A stretch of DNA of 63,497 nt, counting the filler, from Perkinsus olseni (Eukaryota): the NCBI GenBank assembly GCA_013115125.1. It is 8 parts of 8 records of this genome, joined end to end, with 100 filler letters (N's around TTAATTAATTAA, not from the genome) between each part and the next. Parts side by side here need not be neighbours in the genome. Positions count along the whole stretch, not along the records: positions 47,849 to 55,634 come from JABANN010001006.1; 7 more parts are not named here. One strand, 5' to 3'. The position numbers and the translations under genes were made by a program. How positions within the stretch are numbered: position 1 is the stretch's first letter; each line of letters opens with the position of its first letter. The notes under the pieces are model-generated. The model was not told where the DNA came from, made no database searches, and worked only from the letters and a program-made list of their open reading frames with translations. Positions 1,291 to 55,734 of the stretch are shown here, piece by piece.

Positions 1291-1609
1291 TGTGGCGACA
1301 GCAGTGCGCCAGGATACGTTACACAATAATTGCACGACAAGTGTCCCCTTGTAACGGTCGTTCTGAGGCTAGTAGTTGCGATGATACTGTTATGATCGTG
1401 ATTAGTAGATACTATTGTGATAGATACGTCAGTATTTTGGTGTCTGCAGTGCCCTTCTTTGCTGGATCCCCTTTGTTCCCTCTGATCCCCGCCACATCCT
1501 CTGCACTACTACTACTGCTACTCTTTGTCTTCTTCGGTCTCTACGGTCTTGTCGAGTTCCCAGTCGACGGCATGTCCCTCTATGATCACGCGCAACAAGC
1601 TGCGCAACA
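1291..1609 (+). repeat. 5' LTR of element 1
   Basis: Direct repeat of 7407-7725 with TG...CA ends. Confidence 0.95.
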
Positions 1610-7362: not shown

Positions 7363-7406
7363 TTTCTTTTTGCTGTTAGTTGACCGTCAGTATTCGCGGC
7401 CCGGAG

Positions 7407-7725
7407 TGTGGCGACAGCAGTGCGCCAGGATACGTTACACAATAATTGCACGACAAGTGTCCCCTTGTAACGGTCGTTCTGAGGCTAGTAGTTGCGATGA
7501 TACTGTTATGATCGTGACTAGTAGATACTATTGTGATAGATACGTCAGTATTTTGGTGTCTGCAGTGCCCTTCTTTGTTGGATCCCCTTTGTTCCCTCTG
7601 ATCCCCGCCACATCCTCTGCACTACTACTACTGCTACTCTTTGTCTTCTTCGGTCTCTACGGTCTTGTCGAGTTCCCAGTCGACGGCATGTCCCTCTATG
7701 ATCACGCGCAACAAGCTGCGCAACA
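7407..7725 (+). repeat. 3' LTR of element 1
   Basis: Direct repeat of 1291-1609, preceded by PPT-like GCGGCCCGGAG. Confidence 0.95.
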
Positions 7726-7915
7726 CGCTGCCCGAGGTGGGCACTTGCGTTCTTGAGATTCCTCTATGCATCACGATAGTGACAGTTTTGTAGTGCAATA
7801 TATTGCACGAAGATACAATTCGACAACCTGACACATTGCTGAGTAATTGAAGTACTATTGTGTTAGCTGAGCTATAAGGTTTCTGTTGTTAGTTGTCCGT
7901 TTAGCATGATAAGTT

Positions 7916-15918: not shown

Positions 15919-16018
15919 NNNNNNNNNNNNNNNNNNNNNNNNNNNNNNNNNNNNNNNNNNNNTTAATTAATTAANNNNNNNNNNNNNNNNNNNNNNNNNN
16001 NNNNNNNNNNNNNNNNNN

Positions 16019-19000
16019 TGTATACGACTAATGTCATGATCTGTAGGCTGCAGCTTTTGGAAAAGCGTCAAGACTTCCTGCAGATCACGATCCGTTGCGG
16101 AACGAACGAACTTTTGGAACATCATCAGCCGCATAGTCGTTATAACAGAAGGGCTTGTCCATATCAGCGTCTCCTTAATTGGAGGCAGCTGATTAGGATC
16201 ACCACTCCCCATGACCAACACACCGCCGAAGGGCACAGGGGACTTGTGCAGAAACTGGAGGATTTTATTCTGCACGTCTAAAGTTTCTGCCCCCTCAGTT
16301 CCGATTTCTTCGTGGATGAAGACCCTTATTGATCGCAACCACTCCATCTTAACGGGATCACGCGCCAACCGTGTAAGAGCGCGCTCGGCCAAGCTCCTTG
16401 GTGCCAAATCACTGGATACAGGTATGGAGAACACTAAATGAATGTGCTCACCTCCTAGAGCAGCAGCTCTTTCACTCGCGACACTAGTAACTATAGTGTT
16501 GAGCCCCTTCGCCAACGCGTACGCTCCCCAGTGAGCAGTTATGAAGCTTTTGCCGCTCCCTGGAGGTCCGAGGAGAATCGGTGCCCGGACGAACGCTAGC
16601 TGGCCAGACCGAAACTCGTCTATCGCTCGGATGCCCATCTGCAAAGCAGCTTGTTGCTCCTGGAAAGATTCGGCAGATTGAGTAGCTCCTTGCTGCAGAA
16701 CTGGGACCCAAGGTAGAGGGTTTTGGAGCGTGGCGTTAACCAAATCGTCCACGGGTGGCAAGCCATTTATCGGATTCCCCAGGTAGTGCAGTGCCTCGGC
16801 GAAATTTTTCCTAGTGTCTCGTTGTCTTTGGTGTATCGCCTCGACAGCTTGCCTTACAAGCTCATAGCGCAACACCAGCGGAGTCGCGAAGAATTGCAAC
16901 TCGCCCTCAATGAGCAGCGAGTGCAGCGCATTGTTTGCGTGCACAAGGTGCCGGTCGAATGAGACAGTGCCACCAGGCATATAGAGAAGCTGCTCGAGAA
17001 TGTAGCGCCTCAGTATGCGGTTTTTCTCTTGCATCGTAGGGTGCTCAGCATCGGCTATAAGTTGGGCCTCCTGGAATGCTTGTCGCAAGTTCGCCACATC
17101 GAAAACGCCGACCTCAGTTTCATATCGACCCATAGATAGAATAATATGGATCAGAAACCGATCCGCATAGCGCGGCAATGGGTTAGAAAGAACGGCCACT
17201 CGAGGGAAGAAGTCATCCGGAACCACGAATCGTTCTACTAGGTCCATCGGAGGCTCATTACCCAACAGAGGGTCAAGGATATCCCTAATAATTGATCTGA
17301 CCAATTCCCCTTGCTGGGGGTAATAGTACGCTCGATTAGTGACATAAGCTACGGCAGCTTCCCGGACTCGGGAAATGCAGTTCGGTAGCAGCCTGACCTG
17401 CTTATTAAAGCCATCGATCCATGGACATTCAGCTAGTTCCACACGGAGAAGGGCTTCATTGACCTCTTGAATCTGGTCGCCGTTGCGAAGCATGCGCTTG
17501 GGGATCGCCTTGCGGTCTACGCATTCAAAATAGTCCTTGACGGAGCTAATGAAGAGAAGTTCAGGAGGCCTCACGCCGAATATTGATATAGCGTCCGGCA
17601 TGATATTGCTCTGTCGAGCATCACAAATAGCATGAATCTGGGCATTCAGGATCTGCCTCTCGCGAGGAAAACCCAAAGCCTCTCGGACGTCGAATGCTGC
17701 GACTGCATTCCCCTCAGCGCCAGGACGCACGTAGTGGCGCTCCCTCTTCATAATGGCCGACCTATCTTGCTTATATCCTGTGTTGATGTGGATATATTTG
17801 GAGCAGAGGTGGACATACTTGAACTCAAATTCCCAGAAGACGGCTTCTGTCAAGGCAAGAGTCCTGCCCTCAACCGCACTGCTTTTTTTCTCCCTAGCCT
17901 TGTCCGATGAGGATGCGATGGCAGCTCCCGTTACCTTGAGGTTCTGCAGAGGATCCTGAGTGACGGAGACCTCATTCTCACTACGGCCACACTTGAGGAA
18001 TACCCTGGCACGCTCCTCCTCACCAGCTGCGTATTTCGCCAAGTATCGAGCTGTGAAGGTAGGACTGCATATTTGCAGATTGTCACTACTCTTCGCAGCG
18101 GCGAATATCCAATCGTTGAATGGAGACAGCCGCTCCGAGCGCTGTGCCGGGTACATGTGCTTGCGGGCCCTCAACTCCTCAGTGACCATGAGGCCAGGAT
18201 TGCCGCCAGGTCGGGTCCCTTCCTCAGCAAGGTTGCAATCGCGAAGAAGCTCGAGGGCGGTTTCAGAGTGTTCCACGTAAATTGTCTTCGTGGAGTAGAC
18301 CTCTGAAGCAGGGCGCTGAGGAAAGCGGCAAATGAGTTTGCCATCGCTATCCCTTTTCTTAGCGCACCTATACCCCGCCTTCTCGCAGCTGTGCTCTTGC
18401 AACTTGCTGGCGAGAGTCTTCAGGGCCACCACGTCGTTGAAATCGTGTACGAGTCCGGCATCTTTGAACCCGTGCCAGTCGTAGAAACTATGCNNNNNNN
18501 NNNNNNNNNNNNNNNNNNNNNNNNNNNNNNNNNNNNNNNNNNNNNNNNNNNNNNNNNNNNNNNNNNNNNNNNNNNNNNNNNNNNNNNNNNNCAACCCGAA
18601 ATGCTTATTGAGCAAGATATGCCCAGGTACTCCGGACGACGATTCTTGCATGACGGGGATATCGGCTGCGTTAGTCGCTGGCATGCGAGGTTCCTGATCG
18701 ATCGGATCATCCTCGTCCAAGACGCCATCTTGCATTATATCGAAGTCCGGATCCATGAGCAATCCATCTCCAACCTGCGATGCGTCATCATCATCTGAGT
18801 CGTCTTGCTCTTCTATGAGGGCTGCAAGGGGATCCACATTCTGCAGTTCGTCCCCATCCTCCCACATCGGAGGCTGGGCAAGGACAGGGTGGTTAAGATC
18901 CATTGGACGTGAACGAATGCGAAAGACCTGTTGATTGGTGGTAGCCTGTTCGAGCAGTTGCTTACCGTGTGCGTTGCACAGAGCGCATACACATCCTGGC

Positions 19001-22000
19001 TCAGAACAGGACCACTTGCCAACACGGTTACAGATGAAATTACCATTATCGTCCGTATAGCAGCACTTCTCCCGCTGTTGCCCGTGGAAGATGGGAGTTA
19101 TAGTCAAGGGTATGTTATGTTCGTGACATATCAAGTACCCTTGTCCCCCAGTGTACTGCAAATATCTGAGTTTCGCATTCAACCTGTATCCTCCGCCTGT
19201 CCGAACGTAGATGAGGCACCCCCAGGATTTATAAATGCTCCGCAAGCTCTCCTCGAGCGGGTGATCAACTGGTAGGACAGTTGTTGGTCTGCGAGAGGAC
19301 TTGAACCATGACTGGTGCGGTCCTTCGTTGCGTAAAAAGCAGGTACTACTCCAGTTCCTGTTACCTGCATCACCACGTTCCGGATGGCGCCAGGGGCTAG
19401 CAGCAGTGCCATCGACCTTGAGCATTGCTACCAACTCCCACTTAGACTCATCGCAAACAATGAAGTGGTCAGGAGGAGTGGTACGCCGCTCTGTAGAGAC
19501 TGCGGCGTCTGTACAGATGCACAATACCCGACAATCTCGTACTGCATTCATGTCAGGCAATTGTCCTAGCATGTCCCGCACGTACTCGTCATTGACAGGG
19601 GCGGCACGTGATCGCTTATACTTGACGCAGGTGTAAGGTAAGGTTTTAACCAGACGTGCTAACAAAACTGATGTGTGGGAAGAGGCGTCGTCAATAGCTT
19701 GATCAGGGATAAGTCCATGGACTGTGCTTGCTCTTTCCCTGAGCAAGCTTTGAATGGCAGACGGCTTTTGTCTACGGTTCCTGCCTGGTATCCCTTGATT
19801 AAACATGGAACCTAAAGGTAAAGACGCTGCACAGTACGACTTGATGTGCTGCGTTGCAACAGTCTGTCGTTCATTGTTTTCGTCGATGGGTTTGGCAGCT
19901 GCTAAGCACCTCCAGAGTGGTGGAAGAAAAGATACCAGCCGAAGGAGAGACCACAACAGTGGGAAGAATTTGCCGTTGAATGCATTCACTAGGCATGGCC
20001 TATGACCAAATGAATCAACGGATTGGGGTAGAGCGTATGCTGAAGGCCAAGTGACATTGCGTCTCCTGTCTTCTTCCTCAGCCTCAGGTTCAGGCTGCTG
20101 AGCATCGCCACCGCCGAGAACAAGCCGCTGGTGGTTACCATCTTGTACCCCATCGACTGCGGGTTGGTGTTGTGGTTCGTCAACGTCAGCATTATCCTCC
20201 TCAAGGTCACGGACCATGGCAGAAACAGTATGCTTCATACTGTGGAGCACCTCAAGTGACTGTTGTAAGCTAACATACGTAGCTCCAGCAAGAGCTGTGT
20301 CACAACGGTCTGCTGACGGTTGAGGAATGTAATTCAAGGACCGGAGAGGAGCCACGCTTAAAGCATCTTTAGCGTACTTAGTTGTGACGAATGCTCGCAG
20401 GTCGGATCGATTAAAGTAATATAAAGATTCCAGGTTGGCATGGATATCAGATTTGATATTCCATTTGGGAGTGGTAGTCAAAGAAAACGAGGAAAGCCCA
20501 CTGAAACCTCCTTGCACGCAACGCATTTGCCAAGTATGCGAGGAATACTTCGCCTTCATCCCCCGAAAAGGCTTGGGAGAAAATATCGCTGGCGTCAGCT
20601 GATCGCTATACGGGCTTGGGGCAGTACCGTGTGGATTATGTGGCACATGAACATAGAACTTCGATGAGCCTCCATCATGAAACCGACAGGTGCATAACAG
20701 CAAACCTTTATCCGTCACTCGCACGGATGCCATGACCGTGACCCCATACTGGGTAGCTCGCTCTGTGAAATCATGCCTGTAGCCCTTCAGATAACGGTCA
20801 GCGTTGGCGCCGAAAGCGTTAACCTCTGGGAAACGCGTGCGCAGAAAGTGATGGTAAGCAACGGCTCCCGCTTTCTCGATGTACTCTGAGCATCCGAAGG
20901 GACACCTAACGGTAGGAACTGCCGTGTCGTCTAAAGCGTTTTTAAGATCCGAAAGCTTTCCTGTTGCTAAGCGAGTATGGAATACCTCTAAGGTAGTACT
21001 GATATCCCTAACCTGACGTGGAGTCCCGTGCAGGGCATTGTCGCATTGTTGTTGCGACACATGATTACGTGCGAGTAATCGCGCACGGAATGCTCGACCC
21101 CATGTGACTGAAAATGTTTGCGGGATGTAGGAGAGCCTGTTCTCGAAATCTGCACCGTTGGCAGATTGGAGAACGAAGTAAGTGAGGAACGCTCTCCAGC
21201 CGTACGCCCAAATCGCATTCTTGCTACCTAACCCTCTTCGTGGACCTGACGCTTCCGATTCATCTGATGCATCGCTAGATGCACCACTTGATGCATCGCT
21301 TGATGCGTTGCTGGATGAATCAGGAGATGTGTCATGCGCACTGGACTCGATTTCACTACCCTCTGTGGCACTATCGGGACTAGGAATATTTCGGGCATTC
21401 ATACGACGAGGTGGCTGTGGATTTTGATGTACATCATAACATACGTAATGCGAACATGTGACACATAAGAGAATATTGCCTCTAGTACGACGCTCCACTT
21501 GAGAGTAAATCCTGTAACCTACATTCCTGCGCTCAAATTCTTCTACAGGTATACAACATAAACAAGAAAAACAATACCTCTCGTGAGGCTCATCAACAAA
21601 TAAAACATCAGCAATATCACTACGGGCGGTGAAGCTGCTATCAGCATCGCGTATATTGCGTGAGACGCTGGTATCGCTAGAACTATCGTTCACAACGCTC
21701 ACATGTGCACCCTCTGGTGTGGCAGGCTGAATGTCACACTGCTGCTGCTGCGGTGGCGGATTGGCACCCCTGCGTGGTCTCGGTGACGATGGGGCTTGCC
21801 TCAAGGGTCTTGGCGAGGGTCGGGGGGAGCCTGCCTCCTGTTGGGAGGGTGGAACCTGCAGAAGAGAAGCTCAGTGTTACTACTAGTAGCACGATTGCAG
21901 AGATAATCGGCAACAATGGTGTCGTGGCCGAAGCACCGACAGCGGTGACAGCATGAGTGCTTACGCCATGAGTCTGCGGCTCTTGTGAATGAGGGAGGTG

Positions 22001-30209: not shown

Positions 30210-31881
30210 TTACCAATATCTTCAAGCTGGACTTCAGAGATTTGTGCTGCCTTTCTAACAAGGCATTACGCCAAGGCGCTGCTACAGTAGCAGCGCTACT
30301 GCAGGGTCGTTGGTTTCGCAATAAATATTTGTTTCCTTCCGAAGGAAATTAGGAAAAATTCCAATGGAAGAAAAGTCGAGGAAAAAAATTCAAAAAGGTG
30401 GAAAAAAACTGCTTTTTCGGCTTTTTCAATGACTCTTTATCTGCTACTCGTCAATGCATGCTAGTGACCAAAAAGATGTCCGAATCTATCCAAGAGCATC
30501 ATGCCTGTGGCCATGGAGCTGACTAGACTGACTAGACTGCAGAGAAATGATGCGCTATGAATTGAACCTGGGACCTACCAGCTGACGATTATCTTGCAAG
30601 TTGCATGTAATACGGTAGATCGTACTACGGGTCGGGACTCACGACTAAGCGGGAGGATGATCCTCAGGAGTTCCGTCACACGCTTCTAACCTGACTGGTT
30701 GAGTCGGGTAGCTAAAGCTGTCTCATCTTTGTTGGGAGTCCAACGGACAATAGTCGGTCGCGGATAAATGGAAGCTCCTATTACGAGTCTCGTGAGTTCT
30801 AGGTCTAATCGCCCGAATGATAAGATATTTGCACACTCTCGCAAGTGACCTAGATTCGAAACCTTTCAGCCGATAGTAGTGAGGGCGATCTGCCTATCAG
30901 GCCCTCATCCAACGGCGGACCAAAGGTCCGCCACGCTCGGCGCGCTTTGAGAATAAATTTCCTATTTTTTCCCTTTATTTCCCATATTTTTCCTTTTTTT
31001 CCTATTTATTTCAATTCGAGAAATGAAGTCGGACTTTCTTTCCGTGGACCAACGACCCTGCGCTACTGGAATGTGCCAGCAACGAATGTCAAGTGACTGA
31101 CACCAGGCGACGAATGAGGCACAGCGGAACTGGGAAACGTTGTCAGCCGCTATTTCCTTGACCCGTCCAAAGACATCGATGACGTTACGCTCCAGCGCAT
31201 TGGAGATGGCTTCGGCAGTAGCTTGGACTAGGGGAATGGCGCCCAGGAAGTGCGAGCCAGCGCATATCCATGTCAGGATGTATCGGAACCGGTTGCCACC
31301 CAGGTGGCCGACCGGTAGAGGACCCACGATGTCAATGTAGATCAGCTCCATGACCTCCCTCCTCCTCTTAAGAGTGCCAGAAGGGGGGCGATGTAGACGG
31401 ACAGCACGGATGGAGAAGCACTTGCACCGACTGAGGACCTTAGACACCGCCGCTGCCAGACCGATGACGTAGAAGATGGACGATATGATAGAGATGCATT
31501 GAGCGATGCCACAGTGAGCGTAGGACTCATGAACCCTTCTCACCACATCACGGCTGTAGCACTTGGGGAGTCCCCAATGGGGACGATGTGTCGGTCATTG
31601 ACGTGTAGTAGACCGGCGTCGTTCAGCTGGTACTTGCCAAGGTTGACTTGGCGGAGGTGTTGGAGATGAGGTCCTCATCATGAGGACACTCGTTCTGGGC
31701 CTCGGCAAGCCATTGCAGGCTATCGAAGTCGTCATCATAGGTCTTGAACTTCTTCGACTGGGCCATGTCACGCCAAGCTCTGAACACGCAACGAAGGTCT
31801 TCTCCGGGAAGGTAGAGAGGGTCGAACTGAGGAGAGTCGCCAGCTTCAGCTGCTGCACAGATTGGTTGGGTGTAATCGGGG
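30210..31881 (-). pseudogene. LTR-retrotransposon integrase fragment interrupted by a hAT MITE
   Basis: VHESYAH, YIDIVGP, AADNVSQF, WHIPVA-[insertion]-APWRNALLERQHKSLK. Confidence 0.8.
30302..31060. mobile_element. Non-autonomous hAT transposon (MITE)
   Basis: 13-bp TIRs CAGGGTCGTTGGT / ACCAACGACCCTG and an 8-bp TSD CGCTACTG at 30294-30301 and 31061-31068. Confidence 0.92.
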
Positions 31882-47299: not shown

Positions 47300-47353
47300 C
47301 TCAGACTCTGAGTATGAATCTGTCTATCTGGGTTCAAATCCCGGTAGAATCCT
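47300..47353 (+). pseudogene. tRNA-Gln 3'-half remnant
   Basis: Keeps ATCTGGGTTCAAATCCCGGTAGAA and the array spacer. The 5' half is replaced by palindromic sequence. Confidence 0.7.
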
Positions 47354-47413
47354 TTCGTATTGGTCCATGTCTGCTCGCAAGTGACGGCGGCGCCCTAGAA
47401 ACAACGGCCCGCC

Positions 47414-47485
47414 GGTTCTAGGGTGTAGCGGTTAGCACTCCAGACTTTGAATCTGGCGATCTGGGTTCAAATCCCAGTAGAACCT
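47414..47485 (+). tRNA. trnQ: tRNA-Gln(UUG), U8>G variant
   Basis: Acceptor GGTTCTA/TAGAACC, anticodon arm CCAGA-CTTTGAA-TCTGG, T arm CTGGG-TTCAAAT-CCCAG. Confidence 0.85.
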
Positions 47486-47545
47486 TTAGCATTGATCGAT
47501 GTCTGCTCGCAAGTGACGGAGGCGCCCTAGAGACGATTTTCGTTC

Positions 47546-47617
47546 GGTTCTATGGTGTAACGGTTAGCACTCCAGACTCTGAATCTGGCGATCTGGGTTC
47601 AAATCGCGGTAAAACCT
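47546..47617 (+). tRNA. trnQ: tRNA-Gln(CUG), probably defective
   Basis: Anticodon loop CTCTGAA, but the T stem (CGCGG) and acceptor (TAAAACC) carry mismatches. Confidence 0.7.
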
Positions 47618-47677
47618 TCCGTATTGGTCCATGTCTGCTTGCAGGTGACGGTCCCGCCCTAGAAACGACATTGGTTC

Positions 47678-47748
47678 GGTTCTATGGTGTAACGGTTAGC
47701 ACTCCAGACTCTGAATCTGGCGATCTGGGTTCAAATCCCGGTAGAACC
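47678..47748 (+). tRNA. trnQ: tRNA-Gln(CUG)
   Basis: Canonical cloverleaf GGTTCTATGGTGTAACGG...CTCTGAA...GGTTCAAATCCCGGTAGAACC, cut at the contig end. Confidence 0.92.
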
Positions 47749-47848
47749 NNNNNNNNNNNNNNNNNNNNNNNNNNNNNNNNNNNNNNNNNNNNTTAATTAA
47801 TTAANNNNNNNNNNNNNNNNNNNNNNNNNNNNNNNNNNNNNNNNNNNN

Positions 47849-48407
47849 AGTGTTTCCAGTTGTTAATCTGGAAGACCGTGGAATATATTAACCGAAAGGG
47901 TTCACAGAAGGCGATCAACACACCTCTGCCAAAGTAACCCTTGCCAGCTACACACGGGTATTCAGTGCTGGGTGAGCAATAAGAACATGCGGCCAATGAG
48001 TCCTTGCATCCGAGCTCGCTGGTGAAGTAGAGGCCTTGTTTCCATCGAGGTACCGGCCCCCATCCAGTATTCTCTCCGGTCTCTTGGGTGAAATGGGCGA
48101 AGCTCACGGAGAGTTCCTTCCTGCATGCTGTGTCCGGGTCTAATCCTCCAGCAGCCTCGTCACAAAACTTTTCGAACTTGGCAGCAGCAGCGAGGAAATT
48201 GGCGTAGTTGAAAGGTTTTGGCGACACCTGGTAACCGTTAGCTTTAGGGAACAGTTTCTCAAAGTCTTCCGAGGTAAAGATTCTCTTGATGCGTTGGACG
48301 TTGGCAGTATCACCGGCGACAAATCCGTTGCCTAACAGGACACTGTGAAAGAACACGGTCTGCAAGAAGAGAGGAGTAATACAGAAGGACGCGATCGACA
48401 TCTCCAC
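47849..48407 (-). CDS. GH19 chitinase, 5' part
   Basis: FNYANFLAAAAKFEKFC, CRKELSVSFAHFTQETG, QGLYFTSELGC, GYFGRG. Confidence 0.85.
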
Positions 48408-48750
48408 TGAGAAAAGTAGCTACTGAAATCTGGCATTATCATTGAGCGAGCCCACACTCACAGGCTAGTAGGGCCCCGATGCTTTGAGAACGCTTTGAGA
48501 TGAGAATGAAGGATGTCATTGGGACTTCGGAATCGGTAGCCGCTACGGATTCCAGCGACGAGCGAGATGAAGCGCCCTCTTCAAAAAGCATGCCTCACGA
48601 ATAGTTCACAGTTCACACTGTTGACTCAACAGTACTGAGTCAACAACGCTAAGCGAACAGCGCGCGCACGTTTTTTCACCTGCACGCAGATACACCGCCA
48701 CGCTCACACAAGTGTTACGGGCTGTTGAGATCATAGATAACGCAACATGA

Positions 48751-48772
48751 CTTGAGCCAAGATGGCTACGTT
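48751..48772 (-). promoter_or_regulatory. Spliced-leader copy in the 3' LTR
   Basis: AACGTAGCCATCTTGGCTCAAG matches the Perkinsus-type SL ACCGTAGCCATCTTGGCTCAAG (recalled) at 21/22. It overlaps TACTAAC. Confidence 0.85.
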
Positions 48773-48927
48773 AGTAACCGACCTCTCCTCTAGAACCTCT
48801 GATAATAAGTGCCTCTGTAAACCTCTAATGACAATAGCTGACGCCAAGACTTCACTATCTTGCACTCTTGCTATTCCTCTGCAATCAATATATAAATACT
48901 CAACATCTCGGCCCCCCAAGGTGGCGG

Positions 48928-50594
48928 CTATAGAGCAGACACCTTCCTAGAAGATTCGACAGAAAGCTGAGTAGGGCTTTCCAGTTTGAGAACGGAGACT
49001 CCCTTAGGGTTAACAGCAACAGTAGCGGGAATCTCTGGGGGACCTCCAACTCTTAATATACCATCGGGAGTGAAGTACATCGGTACGACAGTTCGATGGT
49101 CCTCTAACAGCTTATATTCATGGACAAGAAAGAAATTATCATTGGTCCATGATATCTTACTACCAACCCTCACCGTACCATCTTCATCTTTCCAGGCTAA
49201 GAAAGGATGACCAGAAGACACAATTCGCACTCTCCTCTTTGGTGGAAGGCCTTCAGTGGTAGGTGGAGATGATAGATCTCTCCTCTTATGACCTCTTGAA
49301 GTGGGTGTCGGCACACGATCTTCTTCTTCTGATATATAAAAAGGCTTAATGTGATCCTTATGAAAGACTTGTCGTGTACCATCCGAAAGCTGTACCTCAT
49401 AACACTGCCCGCCGATAGGATTCATAATGGTACCTCTAATCCATTGTGAATCTAACTTATGTTGGGGCTTACGATATATGTAGACCGATTCTCCTCGAAC
49501 ATAATGTTCTCGGGCCTCTGGGCCTTTACTCCTCTCTCTCGATCTCGTCCACGCGTCAGACCAAACATTCAACAGCTGTCGACGATGACGATCTAATCGA
49601 GATACCTCTGAGAGTACAGCTGACGTTCGAATCTTATTAGGATAAGAGATAAATGACACAATATCCTCATGGGTAAGCGGCTCCTGCAGAACTTGACTTC
49701 GCAGTGACACATCAAAAGGGAGCCTCAGCTTAAACCCGAAAAGAATCTCATGCGGAGAGATGCCGAGCTCAGGATCCGGCACAGAGTTTAGGCGACTTTC
49801 CGCAATAGCTAATAAATCAACCCAAGAAGATCTCTGACGACTCTTGAGTAAAAGGCGTAATGAATCCCCAATTGTTCTATGCTGGCGTTCATAGAACCCC
49901 CCCGAAGCCGGATGGGCAACGGGTAATACTATATGACGAGCAGAGTATAAACAACAAAGGGCATCAAATCTGGGAGACAGAGTAAACTGCCGTCCCTGAT
50001 CACTTATAAAGGTAGATGGAGTTCCAAACCTTAGCAGAACTTGTGTTTCTATTACTCTGCATATAGTATTAGTACTGATATCTGCCAGCGGGAACAGAAG
50101 GGTAAATCGACTTAGTAAATCTGTACACGTCAGCACCCACCTCTCTCCCTTAGAACTGGGGAGTAGCGGCCCTACTATATCGAGCCCCAAGACTTCGAAA
50201 GGCTCGCTAGGGGTCCATAGATGGGCCTCATGCTGACGCTTAACAAAGGAAGCTGACACTTGACAAGGATGACAGCTTCGAATGACCGACTTAACATCGG
50301 CTCGACTACGTGGCCACCAGAATAAACGACGTGAATAGCGATGAGTAGAATTCACCGCCGGATGACCTCTAAGATCATGATAATATTTAATCAACTCAAC
50401 TGGTAGCCGCGAATATTTCGACTTCGGCAATACTATTCTAACATCATCTTCATCATCAACGGGATCCTTTTTACATAGGACATCATTATGAAGGAAGGCG
50501 TTCTCACCATAATAGACAACTGCCGGAGCGACCGACCGTTTCTTCTTCGACAGATCGGCTCCTTCTTCTAGTAGATGACGCACTTCACTACATA
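48928..50594 (-). CDS. Integrase portion of the element 2 polyprotein
   Basis: YHDLRGH..CHPC, GLDIVGP, TDLLSRF, SDQGRQF, GFYERQH. Separated from the upstream ORF by a 14-bp footprint. Confidence 0.88.
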
Positions 50595-53500
50595 GGGGAT
50601 CGGATCCCCGGGATCCTTCTCCTGCTCTCTAATCAAGAACCTTCTTATCAGCTCATGCTTCGGAGTAGCTGAATCTCCTTTCCAAGCATGAAAAGTCTTA
50701 TCAAGATCGTAATAGGTTTTCAGAGATGGTACATTCTCGAGAGTAGGTAGTAGTAAAGAGTGAGGGTAGTAGAGATCAAAAACCTCAAAGGCCAACAATG
50801 GAACCTTACTATCGTCAATGGCGACTGTTAGGTCTATAGCAGTTAGAGGCACGTCACGACTGGCGTGAATACTCAGAAGCTCTCGAGAAAAGGGAATATC
50901 ATCAATAATTCTTGATAAGATATCAACTCGTTTGGTAAAGAATGAAGTATTGTGATGATGAATGAATGATACTGAGATACTCATCGTCTTCAACTCGGCT
51001 ATAATATCATCCGTGCAATCACGGATCCGACGAGTGGCCAACCACTCGATCCCCTTCAACTTCCTCTCAGGTCCTCCCATTCTTCTGATCGCTGTGAATG
51101 AATCACTTCCCAGCACTATCGTTCGCAAAGATCTCCACCAATTCCTCTCGAATTGTTGACATAAGGCCGTCAAACTCTGAAGAATTGCGAACATTTCACG
51201 GCGATTCGCATGCCACGATTCGGCGCGATCAGGAAATAAATGGGCTTCTCCATAAATAGATACCCAGTCCTCTCTCTCCTCTTCTCCTCCCCCCTCTCTG
51301 GAGCGGAAAGCTCCATATAATTCCTTCGCTGGTGCCCAGAATTCTATCCCGTATCCCTTGAATGAGGCATCAGTAAATAGTCGAACGGTTTTTACTCCCG
51401 ATATCAACGGGACCCTCTGATCAATCTGTTGCCATAAATCTTCCGCTGCTTTCAGATGAAGATCGCATTTATCCCTCACATCTTTCGGTAAAATACCATC
51501 CCAAGAATTCTCTGCTCGACCCGATAATTGTCGAACAATATCACAGTGTCCTCTACACTGTGCCTCTGCTGAGCTTTTGGTCAGCTCCAGAAATTTGCCA
51601 GCGTTGGCAAAATAACCTCTTCTAGATTCGATGCTTTCATCAATTTTGATTTCTGGGCGATCGACAAATAAGTTCCCCTTCGCACTATCCCACCTCCACT
51701 TCATTCCCAACCACTTCTGCGGAGAATCCTCCTCCCACATGCTGCGCTTTGAGTCGGGAATCTCAAAGCCGCATTTCGCAAACAGCTGGAACATATCCGC
51801 GTTCCATGCCTGCCTCTCTTCCTCATTCCGGGAAAGGATAAGGAAGTCATCCATAATCCTCACCGTTCGAATATGGGGGTGTTTATATCTAAGAACGGTG
51901 AACAGTATATCTATCACTCCTTCTAAGGAGGCTGGACCAGACGATAGTCCAAACGCTAACCGCCTCGTCATCTTCAAAGTCATATCTCCGCAATCAATCA
52001 GTAATTCGCGGCCGATAGCAAGGCGATAATACGCCTTACTCAAATCCATCTGCTCTACTCTCCAAGCTGGTTGCAATAATCCCTGCAACTGCTGAATCGC
52101 ACAGTGCGTAGAATTCCTCCGATTGTGAGCTGATGGGTACTGCCGATTTATTACTCGGCAATCGAGGCATGGCCGCACTGGTGTGGTAACTTTCCTGAGA
52201 GATACCACAGGAAAGCAGGTAGCAAATTGGGTATCGCTTTCTTTATTCGGTACGGTGATCCCAGTGTCCACCCACCAATGACGATTGAAATACATAGATA
52301 ATTCCTCCTGCCATTTTTTGCGTTCCGCATTCGACAAACGTTGAATCAATCCCGTCGGACGCCAGCTACTTCTGACGTCATAGTCTCTTTCCAATTCCCT
52401 CTTCTTCTCAACTTTTTCCGGCCAATCGATATAAAATCGATACTGCTGCTGTGGGATATCCGGAACTGCTGCATCATGCCCTTCTTCGTGTTCCAATTCT
52501 TCCAATGTCTTGAGCTGCACAGTATACTTAAGAGCATCAGGAAGAGGAAAGGGGCCATGATCATGAATGCGAGAGAGCGCCGTAGCATAAAAATCTGCCT
52601 CGGGAGGAATATTCACCAATAATTTCTCAATCTGCTCTTCTAATGTGGTTCTACTATTCCCTCTCAAAAGTAAATTCGCCGACTGAGGCTCCTCTTCTCT
52701 GATAATATCATCTTCTAAATTTTTGACGCATTTCTCTTCTTCTGAGCAACTAACCTCTATCTGTGCGATATCGATAACTGGTACATCTAATGATGGCGCT
52801 CCTCTCTCCTCAATGTGCCGTGTAGGACTAGGTCGCTCCAGTATCTCTTCTTTCAATGACGATTGGATCTTACTCGCCTCATCATCCTCTAATGAATATA
52901 ATAATTTCGCACCAACTATTCGTAATGCGACTCGACCCAGTATGATAGGATAGCTCAAATCCTTAACCACCAGCGCTGGAATATAGAAGCTGGCACAACC
53001 CTCTGACCCCCGAGATAGAGATACTTGAAGGATACATTCCTCATCAACGGTTCGCGATGTATGATTCGCACACGTAATAATCACTGGCTTAATCTTCCGA
53101 CGTTCGATAATCCCCTCTTGATGTAGTCGGGATGCTAGCTCTTCGCGAATCATCGCGACCGCTGCGCCAGAATCCACCAATGCACAAACATCCAGATTTC
53201 CGATACGTAAAGATACCGTATCCGGCCCCGTCATCATTTTCAGTGACCACGACTCTTTCAACACTTCATTCTCAGCCCCCGTAAAATTTTGCTCAACACA
53301 AGTCAGGTCAACCACACAAGATAACGGATCCGACGAACTTCGTGCACCCTGGGTGGCCCCTGTGGTTGCATCACTAGTTGAGGCCTTTGACTGCGAAGTG
53401 CAGCCCACCTCAATAGTGTATGCGGAAGCCCTCTTAGGTAAACCACCTTTACCGGTGCTTGAAGCTCGATCCGTACCCTGTGGCCTCTGACCTGAAATGA

Positions 53501-54791
53501 GCGGGGAAGGGCATACATACTGTAAGTGACCTTGCTGAGAACATCTCCTACATCTCACCGTAGGAGAAATTGCACAATCTGCCAATCGATGCCTGAGTCC
53601 ACAGCGAGGACATCTCTGGGCCATATCTCCCGGCTTTTCACTCCTACAATAACGCCATGAATGTCCGGGCTGTAGGCACCTACTGCAAGTGCCCGTAAAG
53701 GACGATACTGCTGATTTTCCCTTACCAGCAGCAACCCTCTTCGGTACCAAATCCGATGAACTTTTGGCCTCCCATCGAATTTTCCCAGAGCTCAGCTGTG
53801 ACTCGAAATGCATAGCTTCCCCTCGCAATTCTTTATACGACATACGATCGACCGCCTTCCCCAGGCTCTCTATCGCTTTCGATAATTTCGGTAACAACCC
53901 CATTCTCGCTCTTACACACTTCTCCAATTCCAAATGCTGCTTACCGAATACCGAACATAATAAACTTGACTCCTTATCAATACGGACGAAATAGTCTTCC
54001 ACCCGTTCATCTTCTTTCTGTGCCAAGCGTTCCCAACGCAATAAGGCTTCCCCTTTATTAAATGTGCCGGAAAATCTATCATCGAGATATTCCCAGACTC
54101 TCATCACGATATCCGAACTCGATAACCCTTCTGATAACTTCTCTCTTATCATGACATTAATGTCATCTCTAAGCGGCCCCGAGAAATTCCGAAGTAAATA
54201 ATAAAGTTCCGGCTCCCCTTTCAAATGATAAATAGCGATCGAGTCAACAACTTTCTGCTTGAACATTTCATATGGTAATTCCGCCGTGGGTCGAGACCAC
54301 GGAGCCCCCAACACCAAGTCCAACTTATTCCAATCGATCATATTTTTATTTCCAGAGCCACCACCATCAGTACCACCACCATCATCTGCGCTATCCACTT
54401 TCTCTCCCAAGAATAACTCTAAAGCCTTTTTCAAATCCTCATGACGATCAAGATGCCACTCAACCCCTGATGACCGAGCAGAGGCTGTCGCCTGCTTGGC
54501 TAAGTATTTCCCAAGGAAGCGAACCCATTCCCCTGTCAGACCCTCTACTTGGGCGGCATCAAGAACGGCCCCGTATATTACCCGTGCCCTCTCTTCAACT
54601 CCAGATATCTCCCCTTTTGATATCCATCGTTGAACCTTGGCCCGGATAATTGATACCTCTCGATTGAAGGCTCCTCTCTTCTCAACTTCCAGGTAGAGAT
54701 GCTGCATCTCCAGGCTGAGATCCATACCTGGGATCGGCGCTATCACGGCATCTCCGAAGACGGCGTCGGCGAATCCTGCATCGGGTACCAT
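50568..54791 (-). CDS. Gag-protease-RT-RNase H of element 2
   Basis: Three Cys/His knuckles (CSRCLQPGHSWRYC etc.), VDSGA, MDLSKAY, IMDD, FTDAS. Confidence 0.9.
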   Translation of the reverse strand: MVPDAGFADAVFGDAVIAPIPGMDLSLEMQHLYLEVEKRGAFNREVSIIRAKVQRWISKGEISGVEERARVIYGAVLDAAQVEGLTGEWVRFLGKYLAKQATASARSSGVEWHLDRHEDLKKALELFLGEKVDSADDGGGTDGGGSGNKNMIDWNKLDLVLGAPWSRPTAELPYEMFKQKVVDSIAIYHLKGEPELYYLLRNFSGPLRDDINVMIREKLSEGLSSSDIVMRVWEYLDDRFSGTFNKGEALLRWERLAQKEDERVEDYFVRIDKESSLLCSVFGKQHLELEKCVRARMGLLPKLSKAIESLGKAVDRMSYKELRGEAMHFESQLSSGKIRWEAKSSSDLVPKRVAAGKGKSAVSSFTGTCSRCLQPGHSWRYCRSEKPGDMAQRCPRCGLRHRLADCAISPTVRCRRCSQQGHLQYVCPSPLISGQRPQGTDRASSTGKGGLPKRASAYTIEVGCTSQSKASTSDATTGATQGARSSSDPLSCVVDLTCVEQNFTGAENEVLKESWSLKMMTGPDTVSLRIGNLDVCALVDSGAAVAMIREELASRLHQEGIIERRKIKPVIITCANHTSRTVDEECILQVSLSRGSEGCASFYIPALVVKDLSYPIILGRVALRIVGAKLLYSLEDDEASKIQSSLKEEILERPSPTRHIEERGAPSLDVPVIDIAQIEVSCSEEEKCVKNLEDDIIREEEPQSANLLLRGNSRTTLEEQIEKLLVNIPPEADFYATALSRIHDHGPFPLPDALKYTVQLKTLEELEHEEGHDAAVPDIPQQQYRFYIDWPEKVEKKRELERDYDVRSSWRPTGLIQRLSNAERKKWQEELSMYFNRHWWVDTGITVPNKESDTQFATCFPVVSLRKVTTPVRPCLDCRVINRQYPSAHNRRNSTHCAIQQLQGLLQPAWRVEQMDLSKAYYRLAIGRELLIDCGDMTLKMTRRLAFGLSSGPASLEGVIDILFTVLRYKHPHIRTVRIMDDFLILSRNEEERQAWNADMFQLFAKCGFEIPDSKRSMWEEDSPQKWLGMKWRWDSAKGNLFVDRPEIKIDESIESRRGYFANAGKFLELTKSSAEAQCRGHCDIVRQLSGRAENSWDGILPKDVRDKCDLHLKAAEDLWQQIDQRVPLISGVKTVRLFTDASFKGYGIEFWAPAKELYGAFRSREGGGEEEREDWVSIYGEAHLFPDRAESWHANRREMFAILQSLTALCQQFERNWWRSLRTIVLGSDSFTAIRRMGGPERKLKGIEWLATRRIRDCTDDIIAELKTMSISVSFIHHHNTSFFTKRVDILSRIIDDIPFSRELLSIHASRDVPLTAIDLTVAIDDSKVPLLAFEVFDLYYPHSLLLPTLENVPSLKTYYDLDKTFHAWKGDSATPKHELIRRFLIREQEKDPGDPIPYVVKCVIY
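50595..50616. other. Hairpin-type (hAT-like) excision footprint
   Basis: Minus strand GGATCCC-GGGGATCC-GATCCCC replaces GGATCCCC. Removing 14 bp restores the frame EKDPLCSEVRHLL. Confidence 0.75.
54770..54790 (-). promoter_or_regulatory. Primer-binding site of element 2 overlapping the gag ATG
   Basis: TGGTACCCGATGCAGGATTCG starts 2 nt after the LTR. Its complement CGAAT-CCTGC-ATCGGGT-A-CCA fits a tRNA 3' end. Confidence 0.8.
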
Positions 54792-54820
54792 TTGTTGAGA
54801 TTATAGATAACGCAACATGA

Positions 54821-54842
54821 CTTGAGCCAAGATGGCTACGTT
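54821..54842 (-). promoter_or_regulatory. Spliced-leader copy in the 5' LTR
   Basis: AACGTAGCCATCTTGGCTCAAG, sense to gag, ending 29 nt before the ATG at 54791. It overlaps GACTAAC. Confidence 0.85.
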
Positions 54843-55734
54843 AGTCCCCGACCTCTCCTCTAGAACCTCTGATAATAAGTGCCTCTGTAAACCTCTAATG
54901 ACAATAGCTGACGCCAAGACTTCACTATCTTGCACTCTTGCTATTCCTCTGCAATCAATATATAAATACTCAACACGGGCTTAGTTAAGCATTGTGCCTG
55001 TTCAGGCGAGGTCACGCTGAGACTTAGTCTGAGTACACCAGCGCGAGCGTAACTTATCCACTCACTACCCATAGCGACTAAGAATGCCTATCTTTGTACC
55101 GTTGATTCTAGTTGCGCTGTTTTAGGAGACAGTTGCACGCATACGTTACGGCGTTACGCCTGCAAGTTGCATGGGGTAGAAACTGGCTTCGTTTGCCTGT
55201 TTCGTCTCCCATATGGTCTAGCGCCTCAACGTGGCGTGGGGGTGATACTCATTCGGAGTATGCGAAGCTAGACCGACTATACCGAACTCGACGATCACCC
55301 AACGGGTGGTGACTGAGTGGCGGTAAAAATTCCCTCCTCCCCACTTTCCATCTATCTATGCCCCCTCGTCTCTACGCTGTCGATTCGCCGCTACGATTAC
55401 TACCATGACTGTGGTACTGTCCGGGTTGTGCATTGTCTACATTGCTGCCCGACGATATTGCCTGATACTCATAGTCGATTACACTGTAGTTGTGAACTAG
55501 TCGCTGTATTCCCTCGTTACCCTCGCCACTTTTAACCTTTTGCTTTAGCGTTTCGATCATTTTTCACTGTGCGTACTGCATATTTTGGGGGTTGAGGGAT
55601 GATGCTGCCACTGGTTACTGCCCGTGAGTGCATTNNNNNNNNNNNNNNNNNNNNNNNNNNNNNNNNNNNNNNNNNNNNTTAATTAATTAANNNNNNNNNN
55701 NNNNNNNNNNNNNNNNNNNNNNNNNNNNNNNNNN

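What the first reader, a model, noticed from the sequence alone, without database searches (positions are those of the whole stretch)
54793..54975. LTR retrotransposon whose LTRs encode the host spliced leader
Seen: both LTRs (54821-54842 and 48751-48772, minus strand) contain AACGTAGCCATCTTGGCTCAAG, sense to gag. The 5' copy ends 29 nt before the ATG, and the terminal G is followed by TCATG rather than a GT donor, so this is not an SL-RNA gene. Known: Perkinsus and dinoflagellate mRNAs receive a 22-nt SL (Perkinsus type recalled as ACCGTAGCCATCTTGGCTCAAG), and LTR replication needs the RNA 5' end to match the 3' R region. Inference: building the SL into R means a trans-spliced, capped RNA still strand-transfers correctly, or the element transcribes an SL mimic directly. 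I do not know of this being described for LTR elements. SLACS/CRE/NeSL are non-LTR elements that target SL arrays, which is a different phenomenon.
Basis: partly seen in the sequence, partly recalled or inferred. Interest (0 to 1): 0.92.

Follow-up and report, generated by a model that had tools for sequence, protein, structure and literature searches.

The report
Retrotransposon carrying the host spliced leader
A jumping gene in the shellfish parasite Perkinsus carries, in both of its terminal repeats, a copy of the short leader that this organism splices onto its own messenger RNAs; it probably got there when a leader-capped transcript of the element was copied back into DNA, and it may now let such transcripts replicate.

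Summary
A 6,253-bp LTR retrotransposon lies on the minus strand at 48723-54975. It has 183-bp LTRs, a 5-bp target duplication, a PBS, a PPT, gag-PR-RT-RNase H and an integrase. Both LTRs hold AACGTAGCCATCTTGGCTCAAG, sense to gag, 28 nt before the LTR end. This matches the published 22-nt Perkinsus marinus leader at 21 of 22 positions. It is not an SL RNA gene: there is no GT donor and no Rfam hit.

The closest protein is labelled Perkinsus olseni.

Best reading, which is inferred: a trans-spliced element RNA was reverse-transcribed, which fixed the leader in the LTR at the R position. Strong-stop DNA made on leader-capped RNA would then find 20 nt of homology in the 3' LTR. A TACTAAC-like box 20 nt before the copy's final AG fits re-splicing at that AG.

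Function is not shown. Public-read contigs broke at the LTR edge, so they gave neither transcript starts nor poly(A) sites. Other retroelement sequences in the window lack the leader. No related element was found in viral, metagenome or genome contigs.

Eight of nine paper searches dealt with leaders in retroelements or with Perkinsus, and none turned up a leader inside an LTR. The finding is a new variant of known leader-relic and leader-mimicry phenomena, of moderate to high interest.

The parts
54793..54975 (-). 5' LTR, 183 bp, TG...CA ends, terminal inverted repeat TGTTGAG/CTCAACA
   Evidence: Differs from the 3' LTR at LTR positions 129, 130 and 174 only.
54821..54842 (-). Spliced-leader copy in the 5' LTR (LTR positions 134-155). 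It matches 21 of 22 positions of PmaSL1, 20 of them contiguous (leader positions 3-22).
   Evidence: Leader sequence taken from PMC3101222 section 6.
54840..54846 (-). GACTAAC, a branch-point-like box overlapping leader positions 1-3. Its last A lies 20 nt before the final G of the copy.
   Evidence: Read. The branch-point consensus is recalled, not tested in Perkinsus.
54872..54878 (-). TTATTAT, a weak TATA-like stretch 36-30 nt upstream of leader position 1
   Evidence: Read. Inference only.
54801..54818 (-). 5-codon upstream ORF (ATG TTG CGT TAT CTA TAA) between the leader copy and the gag ATG
   Evidence: Read. The stop is TGA in the 3' LTR.
54770..54790 (-). Putative primer-binding site TGGTACCCGATGCAGGATTCG, 2 nt after the LTR. 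Its complement reads like a tRNA 3' end (T-loop, T-stem, acceptor, A, CCA). The gag ATG overlaps it.
   Evidence: No cognate tRNA gene was found in the window or in the 191 loci held at that point.
50568..54791 (-). ORF1, 1,407 aa: gag with three CCHC knuckles, protease (LVDSGA), reverse transcriptase (IMDD box), RNase H (FTDAS)
   Evidence: Pfam RVT_1 at 2.9e-09. The protease and zinc-knuckle hits fall below the Pfam cut-offs. Motifs were read.
48928..50583 (-). ORF2, 551 aa: integrase (HHCC zinc domain plus DDE core), in frame +2 relative to ORF1
   Evidence: Pfam Integrase_H2C2 at 1.1e-14 and rve at 9.6e-11. PFV integrase at 3.3e-26 and Ty3 Gag-Pol at 5.9e-10.
48906..48917 (-). Polypurine tract GGGGGGCCGAGA abutting the 3' LTR
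48723..48905 (-). 3' LTR, 183 bp
48751..48772 (-). Spliced-leader copy in the 3' LTR. Here it is preceded by T, which gives an exact TACTAAC at 48776-48770.
54976..54980 (-). Target-site duplication GCCCG, upstream copy
48718..48722 (-). Target-site duplication GCCCG, downstream copy

Best explanation
This is an autonomous LTR retrotransposon of a Perkinsus genome that looks like P. olseni. Reverse transcriptase comes before integrase, as in Ty3/gypsy and Bel/Pao elements. Each LTR has taken up a cDNA copy of the host's 22-nt spliced leader.

Origin (inferred). An element transcript that had been trans-spliced in its 5' leader was used as the template. The leader was therefore copied into minus-strand strong-stop DNA and fixed in the LTR, between U3 and a 28-nt U5.

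Working (inferred). The copy now is, or lies in, R. The primary transcript is trans-spliced again at the AG that ends the encoded copy, helped by a TACTAAC/GACTAAC box 20 nt upstream. This swaps the encoded copy for the real capped leader without changing the sequence from leader position 3 onward. Strong-stop DNA made on that RNA is about 50 nt long (U5 plus leader). It finds 20 nt of perfect homology in the leader copy of the 3' LTR, so first-strand transfer works. A leader-capped mRNA is therefore also a competent genomic RNA.

Shown: the anatomy, the leader match, multiple genomic contexts of the LTR, and presence in RNA-labelled libraries.

Inferred: trans-splicing of this RNA, the acceptor site, a poly(A) site downstream of the copy, and any selective benefit.
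For: Anatomy:
- Complete LTR-element anatomy with the leader copy at LTR positions 134-155. It sits 28 nt before the LTR end and 30 nt before a tRNA-like PBS.
- The copy is sense to gag, keeps its 3' end including the AG, and deviates only at the cap-proximal position 2.

Known route:
- The only route described in the papers read here for a leader to enter DNA is reverse transcription of a trans-spliced RNA. This is the relic-leader 'mRNA recycling' model (passages in PMC7245778, and PMC3942190).
- Perkinsus mRNAs are trans-spliced, and P. marinus holds over 100 intron-less leader-like genomic copies (PMC2868825 passages; PMC3101222 section 16).

Amplification and expression:
- In DNA run X1 the LTR bin has mean word depth 1255.6, against 112.8-211 for the 27 internal bins. 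Contigs leave the LTR's outer edge into at least two other flanks (tables 2 and 7). The leader-bearing LTR therefore probably kept transposing.
- 20 of 24 listed runs from 11 studies hold the element. Two are on record as RNA. In RNA run X14 contigs cover 48906-54818, while the flank 54982-55198 has depth 0.

Splice context:
- The only mismatch to the leader creates the CTAAC core of a branch-point-like box (exact TACTAAC in the 3' LTR). The only AG at a workable distance downstream is the copy's last AG.
- No truncated tandem relic follows the copy, as would build up if the internal AG were the acceptor. By contrast, 18 of 71 environmental leader copies are followed by CC.
Against: - There is no direct evidence that this element's RNA is trans-spliced or where it is polyadenylated. 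The contigs end at 54818-54821, which is the break expected 31 letters in from the LTR edge. That is not a transcript start. Raw-read run X24 laid only 1 read.
- If strong-stop DNA copied the real leader to its end, position 2 should have reverted to C. Genomic leader copies elsewhere usually keep CC there: 57 of 71 do, and 0 of 71 have AAC. The model therefore needs reverse transcription to stop at about leader position 3, or a recent mutation.
- A second intact LTR element (1291-7726), a gag-like ORF (99-1229) and an integrase-like fragment (31058-31570) in the same window have no leader copy in the sequence available. The leader is therefore not a general requirement.
- In C. elegans Cer1 the full-length RNA is not trans-spliced (PMC3315495 passages).
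- The three LTR differences give no power to test conservation.
- The branch-point reading is post hoc, and the relaxed consensus is common by chance.
- The leader of P. olseni itself was not found in print.
Confidence: 0.45

Rival explanations
1. Neutral relic. The leader entered the LTR once, by reverse transcription or template switching on a trans-spliced RNA, and has simply been carried along. Genomic RNA starts upstream, for example after the TATA-like stretch at LTR positions 8-20, and is not trans-spliced. The copy is then an inert part of R or U5.
For: - This is the most economical reading of the same facts. Both LTRs share the copy trivially, because they come from one cDNA.
- Other retroelements in the window do without it.
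- The imperfect position 2 persists, as expected if the copy is inherited as ordinary LTR sequence.
- The full-length RNA of Cer1 escapes trans-splicing.
- No conservation signal could be obtained.
Against: - The acquisition itself implies that a trans-spliced element RNA was reverse-transcribed and integrated at least once. If the same acceptor is still used, the homology works whether or not it is selected for.
- The copy is intact over 20 nt and sits in a high-depth, multi-locus LTR.
- The position-2 change builds a branch-point-like box at the right distance.
Confidence: 0.33
2. Leader mimic transcribed directly. Transcription starts at the first A of the encoded copy, so the RNA is born with a near-leader 5' end. 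It is not trans-spliced, and R begins with the mimic.
For: - A weak TATA-like TTATTAT lies 36-30 nt upstream, and the copy starts with A preceded by T.
- The AACG start would be inherited unchanged.
- There is a precedent for the idea: a dinoflagellate RNA virus was reported to carry the dinoflagellate leader as 'molecular mimicry' (Levin et al. 2017, as described in a passage of PMC9651163).
- In AT-rich contigs labelled as giant-virus bins I saw 109 of 123 genome-encoded leader copies as full 22-mers starting ACC, and 98 of 127 followed by an ORF of 100 aa or more.
Against: - A mimic under selection should be perfect, as in those viral contigs. Here position 2 is wrong.
- Nothing is known here about Perkinsus promoters, and the TATA-like match is weak.
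- There are no transcript-start data.
Confidence: 0.12
3. It is an SL RNA gene, or the element is a site-specific inserter into SL genes as SLACS, CRE and NeSL are, or the match is chance or an assembly artefact.
For: Only the 21 of 22 identity to the leader.
Against: - No GT donor follows the exon in either copy, and there are no Rfam matches in the whole 7.8-kb piece.
- The leader lies inside the LTRs, not in the flanks. The flanks are unrelated sequence with a 5-bp duplication.
- The chance expectation is 0 in 100 shuffles.
- Independent DNA runs hold the element, and a DNA contig from run X1 reaches into the leader copy.
Confidence: 0.02

Closest known systems
[quoted passage not shown]
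   Same: A DNA-encoded, intron-less, sense copy of the host leader sits just upstream of an ORF. It is explained by reverse transcription of a trans-spliced RNA, and it can be re-spliced at an AG of the encoded copy.
   Different: Here the copy lies inside the LTR of the retroelement itself, so it is duplicated at both ends and sits where R should be. There are no truncated tandem relics. The 5' context is AAC rather than the usual CC (0 of 71 against 57 of 71).
Intron-less 'SL-like' genomic sequences of Perkinsus marinus (PMC3101222 section 16)
   Same: Same genus and same leader type. There are over 60 PmaSL1-like copies without an intron, and they are not expressed as SL RNA.
   Different: That paper describes them as mostly starting with T and arrayed in tandem, and does not link them to LTR elements. 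Whether some of them are LTRs could not be checked, because no Perkinsus genome is held.
SLACS, CZAR, CRE and NeSL: spliced-leader-associated non-LTR retrotransposons (recalled, not read here)
   Same: Retroelements of trans-splicing hosts whose biology is tied to the leader.
   Different: Those elements insert into SL RNA genes and have no LTRs. This element carries the leader within its own LTRs and sits in unrelated DNA.
Cer1, a Ty3/gypsy element of C. elegans (PMC3315495 passages)
   Same: An LTR element in a trans-splicing host. One of its RNAs receives SL1.
   Different: In Cer1 only the spliced 2.4-kb RNA is trans-spliced, and the 8-kb genomic RNA is not. No leader is reported in its LTR.
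Dinoflagellate leader at the 5' end of a Symbiodinium +ssRNA virus, proposed as molecular mimicry (Levin et al. 2017, seen only as described in PMC9651163)
   Same: A genetic parasite of a leader-using host carries the host leader in its own genome.
   Different: That is an RNA virus, not a retrotransposon. No role in strand transfer is possible there.

Membership tests
LTR retrotransposon (order RT before integrase: Ty3/gypsy, Bel/Pao type) | Two direct long terminal repeats with TG...CA ends | tested here: met
   183-bp repeats at 98% identity, TGTTGAG...CTCAACA
LTR retrotransposon (order RT before integrase: Ty3/gypsy, Bel/Pao type) | Short target-site duplication flanking the element | tested here: met
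   GCCCG at 54976-54980 and 48718-48722
LTR retrotransposon (order RT before integrase: Ty3/gypsy, Bel/Pao type) | Primer-binding site complementary to a tRNA 3' end next to the 5' LTR | tested here: inconclusive
   A TGG-initiated 21-mer lies 2 nt after the LTR, and its complement has the layout of a tRNA 3' end. No matching tRNA gene was available.
LTR retrotransposon (order RT before integrase: Ty3/gypsy, Bel/Pao type) | Polypurine tract before the 3' LTR | tested here: met
   GGGGGGCCGAGA at 48906-48917
LTR retrotransposon (order RT before integrase: Ty3/gypsy, Bel/Pao type) | gag, protease, RT, RNase H, then integrase | tested here: met
   RVT_1, Integrase_H2C2 and rve pass the Pfam cut-offs. 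The protease and zinc-knuckle hits are below cut-off but their motifs are visible. The integrase matches PFV and Ty3 structures. The lineage within this type was not resolved.
SL RNA gene | Leader exon followed directly by a GT splice donor and an intron | tested here: not met
   Followed by TCATG in both copies. No Rfam match, although Rfam may hold no Perkinsus SL RNA model.
Leader-gene-specific non-LTR retrotransposons (SLACS, CRE, NeSL) | Insertion within an SL RNA gene or array, and no LTRs | tested here: not met
   The leader is internal to the LTRs. The flanks are unrelated sequence. The element has LTRs.
Relic leader from retroposition of a trans-spliced RNA | Intron-less sense copy of the leader in DNA at the 5' side of the transcribed unit | tested here: met
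Relic leader from retroposition of a trans-spliced RNA | Mature RNA carries a fresh leader spliced onto or in front of the relic | not testable with these tools
   Contigs cannot show RNA starts, and the one raw-read run laid 1 read
Leader mimicry by a genetic parasite (as proposed for a dinoflagellate RNA virus) | The leader forms the extreme 5' end of the parasite's own primary transcript | not testable with these tools
   No transcript-start data

The most novel reading that the evidence does not exclude
The host spliced leader has been domesticated as the R region of an LTR retrotransposon. The encoded copy, with a branch point built by its single mismatch, directs its own replacement by the real capped leader. 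The copy in the 3' LTR then receives the strong-stop DNA, so one RNA species serves as a host-like mRNA and as the genome. Together with the genome-encoded full leaders seen upstream of ORFs in AT-rich contigs labelled as giant-virus bins, and the reported RNA-virus case, this would make encoding the host leader a convergent strategy of genetic parasites of dinozoans.
Probability: 0.35. Interest if true: 0.8.

Novelty: new variant of a known kind. Interest (0 to 1): 0.6.

Why it matters
LTR elements and retroviruses need identical sequence at both ends of their RNA. In hosts that replace mRNA 5' ends by trans-splicing, this creates a conflict that has not been studied. In the one LTR element for which I read the RNA data (Cer1), the genomic RNA escapes trans-splicing. 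An element that builds the leader into its LTR would show a different solution.

It would also show that leader-capped RNAs are templates for the reverse transcriptases behind the widespread retrogene 'recycling' of dinozoans. It might further explain part of the unexplained leader-like repeats of Perkinsus genomes. The question is directly testable with 5' and 3' end mapping.

Tried and rejected
- Whole-genome census of LTR copies: no genome is held for this window.
- Earlier notes of this scan: three look-ups, nothing.
Contigs end at 54818-54821, which is the k-mer break at the LTR edge, so they say nothing about RNA starts. Raw-read run X24 laid 1 read. No poly(A) loose end was listed. 160 difference rows and 23 loose-end rows were hidden. 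Two features stay unresolved: a joint 49679 to 54881 in X14 (side 28, non-canonical ends), and an X6 contig that leaves the LTR at 54861.
None is the Perkinsus C-type 19-mer. One two-copy locus (L079) has no reverse transcriptase and is not an LTR element.
- Metagenome contigs scanned for the C-type 19-mer: 71 loci, none in an AAC context.
- tblastn of ORF1 and ORF2, and of two ORFs of the second element, its polyprotein and an integrase ORF, against the 191 loci then held: no hits.
- Genome contigs: 1 hit, a chance match inside a bacterial coding region.
- The search for related loci with ORF1 in viral contigs: none.
- Protein search with ORF1: 1 hit at E of 1e-5 or better among the 8,000 candidates scored. 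It is the same element in a record labelled P. olseni.
- Listing the members of that hit's protein cluster: not possible, the shared database was switched off.
- S-type 21-nt leader in the window: one 2-mismatch hit at 28571, within chance (9 of 100 shuffles).
- The bacterial promoter and terminator scan is not applicable to this organism.
- ORF1 against solved structures: no hit.
- Papers: nine searches. Eight dealt with leaders in retroelements or with Perkinsus, and one with giant viruses. None turned up a leader inside an LTR.
- Supplements were not opened. Those of PMC3101222 or of Perkinsus genome papers may list the leader-like loci.

Full report
**Observation.** The 22-mer AACGTAGCCATCTTGGCTCAAG is present exactly twice in the 63,497-base window, at 54821-54842 and 48751-48772, both on the minus strand. 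No further site appears at up to 3 mismatches, and 0 of 100 shuffles reached two matches. Suffixes of the motif of 9 nt or more occur nowhere else, and only these two 22-nt windows reach 16 of 22 identities. The interval in the finding, 54793-54975, is one copy of a 183-nt direct repeat. The other copy is 48723-48905, at 98% identity with 6,070-nt spacing. Aligning both copies with 150-200 nt of flank shows that similarity starts and stops exactly at these borders.

**Anatomy.** Read on the minus strand, the repeats begin TGTTGAG and end CTCAACA. They are flanked by the 5-bp duplication GCCCG at 54976-54980 and 48718-48722. Two bases after the 5' LTR lies TGGTACCCGATGCAGGATTCG. Its complement has the layout of a tRNA 3' end: T-loop, T-stem, acceptor strand, A, CCA. 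The initiator ATG of the first ORF lies inside this putative primer-binding site. A purine tract GGGGGGCCGAGA abuts the 3' LTR.

ORF1 (54791..50568, 1,407 aa) shows three CCHC knuckles, an LVDSGA protease motif, an IMDD polymerase box and an FTDAS RNase H motif. It passes Pfam's RVT_1 cut-off. ORF2 (50583..48928, 551 aa) is an integrase, with Integrase_H2C2 at 1.1e-14 and rve at 9.6e-11, and with PFV integrase at 3.3e-26 and Ty3 Gag-Pol at 5.9e-10. The element is therefore a complete 6,253-bp LTR retrotransposon of the type with reverse transcriptase before integrase.

ORF2 is in frame +2 relative to ORF1. In run X1 and in RNA run X14 the matching contigs lack 14 nt at 50596, while in X6 they do not (table 4). 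Because 14 is 2 modulo 3, copies without those 14 nt should read gag through integrase as one frame. That follows from arithmetic only. The window's copy and the annotated P. olseni copy both stop at ...VVKCVIY.

**Position of the leader copy.** It occupies LTR positions 134-155. 133 nt precede it, and 28 nt follow it up to the LTR end. It is sense to gag, ends 29 nt before the ATG, and is followed by TCATG in both LTRs. A 5-codon upstream ORF lies between it and the gag ATG.

**Host and leader.** The window is eight pieces of about 7.9 kb joined by N-TTAATTAATTAA-N linkers. The element's piece is 47849-55634. The only database protein related to ORF1 at E of 1e-5 or better, among 8,000 scored candidates, is a 998-aa 'hypothetical protein [Perkinsus olseni]'. 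It matches at 996 of 1,018 aligned columns, and 20 of the differing columns are one gap.

The published P. marinus leaders are ACCGTAGCCATCTTGGCTCAAG (22 nt) and a 21-nt form (PMC3101222 section 6; a passage of PMC9399869). The LTR copy therefore equals the 22-nt leader at positions 1 and 3-22. I found no printed leader for P. olseni. Identity of the host's leader rests on its congeners.

**What it is not.** No GT donor follows the copy, and the whole 7.8-kb piece gives no Rfam match at E up to 1. It is not an SL RNA gene. The leader is inside the LTRs and the flanks are unrelated sequence. It is therefore not an insertion into a leader array.

**Other copies and expression.** 20 of 24 listed public runs from 11 studies hold the element, 19 of them with at least half of its sampled words. 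Two are on record as RNA. I laid 4 of the 24 (X1 DNA, X14 RNA, X6 guessed RNA, X24 raw RNA) on 48906-55400.

- In X1 the LTR bin has mean word depth 1255.6, against 112.8-211 in the 27 internal bins. Contigs leave the LTR's outer edge into at least two other flanks. The tool warns that depth is not copy number, but together these results suggest many extra or solo LTRs at other sites.
- In X14 contigs cover 48906-54818, while the flank 54982-55198 has depth 0. This fits transcription of the element, but DNA carry-over or a different insertion site cannot be excluded.
- Contigs end at 54818-54821. That is the position expected for 31-letter word graphs at an LTR edge at 54793, so it is not a transcript start.
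- Within the LTR only one substitution (54914, in all three contig runs) and one 3-nt insertion right after the leader copy were listed. The insertion lies behind 54819, at depth 258.1 of 2248.4 in X1. 160 rows were hidden.
- X24 laid one read.

The requested tests therefore remain open: ACCG against AACG at the RNA 5' end, the poly(A) site, and conservation across copies.

**Generality.** In the same window a second intact LTR element lies at 1291-7726, with LTRs of about 320 bp. I read a 5-bp CACGC duplication from the flanks. It carries a Pao-type peptidase domain. A gag-like ORF lies at 99-1229, and an integrase-like stretch at 31058-31570. None has a leader copy in the sequence available.

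None is the C-type 19-mer.
- A scan of metagenome contigs for the C-type 19-mer gave 71 loci. 57 are preceded by CC (41 by TCC), none by AAC, 3 are followed by GT, and 18 are followed by CC as in truncated tandem relics.
- tblastn with ORF1 and ORF2 and with two ORFs of the second element (its polyprotein and an integrase ORF) found nothing in the 191 loci then held.
- A protein-guided scan of viral contigs found no relative.
- The one hit in prokaryote genome contigs is a chance match in a coding region.

I therefore have no second, independent leader-bearing LTR family.

**Mechanism: origin.** The only route described in the papers read here that puts a leader into DNA is reverse transcription of a trans-spliced RNA (relic-leader model; passages). 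For the leader to end up inside an LTR, next to U5, it must have been at the 5' end of an element RNA that templated minus-strand strong-stop DNA. That is an inference, but a strong one.

**Mechanism: consequences.** Two conditions are untested. The first is that the same acceptor is still used. The second is that the 3' LTR is polyadenylated downstream of the copy. If both hold, a leader-capped RNA carries 20 nt of identical sequence at both ends, which is what first-strand transfer needs.

Two details fit re-splicing at the copy's last AG. First, the single mismatch (A for C at leader position 2) creates GACTAAC in the 5' LTR and an exact TACTAAC in the 3' LTR. The last A of this box lies 20 nt before the final G, and the only other AG is 4-5 nt away, which is too close. 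The branch-point consensus is recalled and has not been tested for Perkinsus. Second, no truncated relic follows the copy.

One detail counts against the model. Full copying of the real leader would restore C at position 2. The model therefore needs reverse transcription to stop near position 3, or a recent mutation.

The direct-mimic alternative has a weak TATA-like TTATTAT at -36 to -30 and would keep AACG. A selected mimic, however, should be perfect. The neutral-relic alternative explains everything seen without any role. It is only disfavoured by the intactness of the copy, the depth of the LTR and the splice-like context.

My odds are 0.45 for a functional R with re-splicing, 0.33 for a neutral relic, 0.12 for a direct mimic, and the remainder for other readings.

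**Comparison with what is known.** PMC3101222 section 16 reports over 100 intron-less leader-like sequences in P. marinus. It shows that they are not SL RNA genes and does not connect them to LTR elements. Relic leaders of dinoflagellate retrogenes are well described. Leader mimicry has been proposed for a dinoflagellate RNA virus. In C. elegans Cer1 the genomic RNA is not trans-spliced.

Eight of the nine full-text searches combined spliced leader, trans-splicing, LTR, primer binding site, retrotransposon, Perkinsus or dinoflagellate terms. The ninth was about giant viruses. Passages of the most relevant papers did not turn up a leader inside an LTR. The library lacks most subscription journals and Repbase, and supplements were closed, so this is not proof of absence.

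**Verdict.** I rate it a new variant of a known kind, with interest 0.6.

Noticed in passing
Loci L001-L120 (IMG/VR contigs, many labelled GVMAG, e.g. L011, L061, L066, L076, L078): Very AT-rich contigs (median G+C 22%) labelled as giant-virus bins carry many genome-encoded copies of the dinoflagellate leader: 127 exact 19-mer cores in 120 loci. 109 of 123 are preceded by ACC, which makes them full 22-mers, with a T-rich upstream. 122 of 127 have an ATG within 150 nt (median 49), and 98 of those open an ORF of 100 aa or more. Where a locus has several copies, similarity lies upstream of the leader and stops at its end. Of ten such ORFs tested, three hold DUF4116 repeats. Either giant-virus-like genomes encode the host leader at gene starts, or these are mis-binned alveolate contigs. 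One paper search showed no description..
   Followed up: partly
window 50596 (ORF1/ORF2 junction, 50568-50631): 14-nt presence/absence polymorphism among copies. The 14 nt are absent in the contigs of X1 and X14, and present in X6, in the window and in the annotated P. olseni protein. By frame arithmetic the shorter form would fuse gag-pol and integrase into one ORF..
   Followed up: partly
window 1291-7726 (+), LTRs about 1291-1610 and 7407-7726: A second intact LTR retrotransposon: a 1,480-aa ORF with a Pao-type peptidase domain, plus an integrase ORF. I read a CACGC target duplication from the flanks, which was not checked further. It has no leader copy. It is inserted about 60 nt upstream of a minus-strand gag-like ORF (99-1229) that is 28% identical to the gag part of the focal element..
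   Followed up: partly
window 1-63497: The window is not one locus. It is eight pieces of about 7.9 kb joined by linkers (44 N, TTAATTAATTAA, 44 N), with two further 98-N gaps. Neighbours across a linker are not genomic neighbours..
   Followed up: yes
window 47310-47750 (+): Tandem array with a 132-bp period holding three tRNA-Gln genes (one TTG and two CTG anticodons) and a fourth partial unit, at the end of the preceding piece..
   Followed up: no
window 15967-21402 (-): An 1,811-aa ORF with a PIF1-like helicase domain near its C-terminus, possibly a Helitron-type or other mobile-element protein..
   Followed up: no
Loci L121-L191 (metagenome contigs): The Perkinsus-type (C at position 12) leader core is common in environmental contigs. 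41 of 71 copies start TCC, 18 of 71 are followed by a degenerate truncated relic beginning CC, and 3 of 71 are followed by GT (candidate SL RNA genes L122, L129, L175). The C-type leader, or its relics, is therefore not confined to cultured Perkinsus..
   Followed up: partly
window 54861 and 54881 (inside the 5' LTR): One contig of run X6 follows the LTR from its start to position 115 and then continues with unrelated sequence. One contig of RNA run X14 joins LTR position 95 to 49679 with non-canonical ends. These may be LTR variants without the leader, deletion derivatives, or graph artefacts. One search, tables 5 and 7.
   Followed up: no
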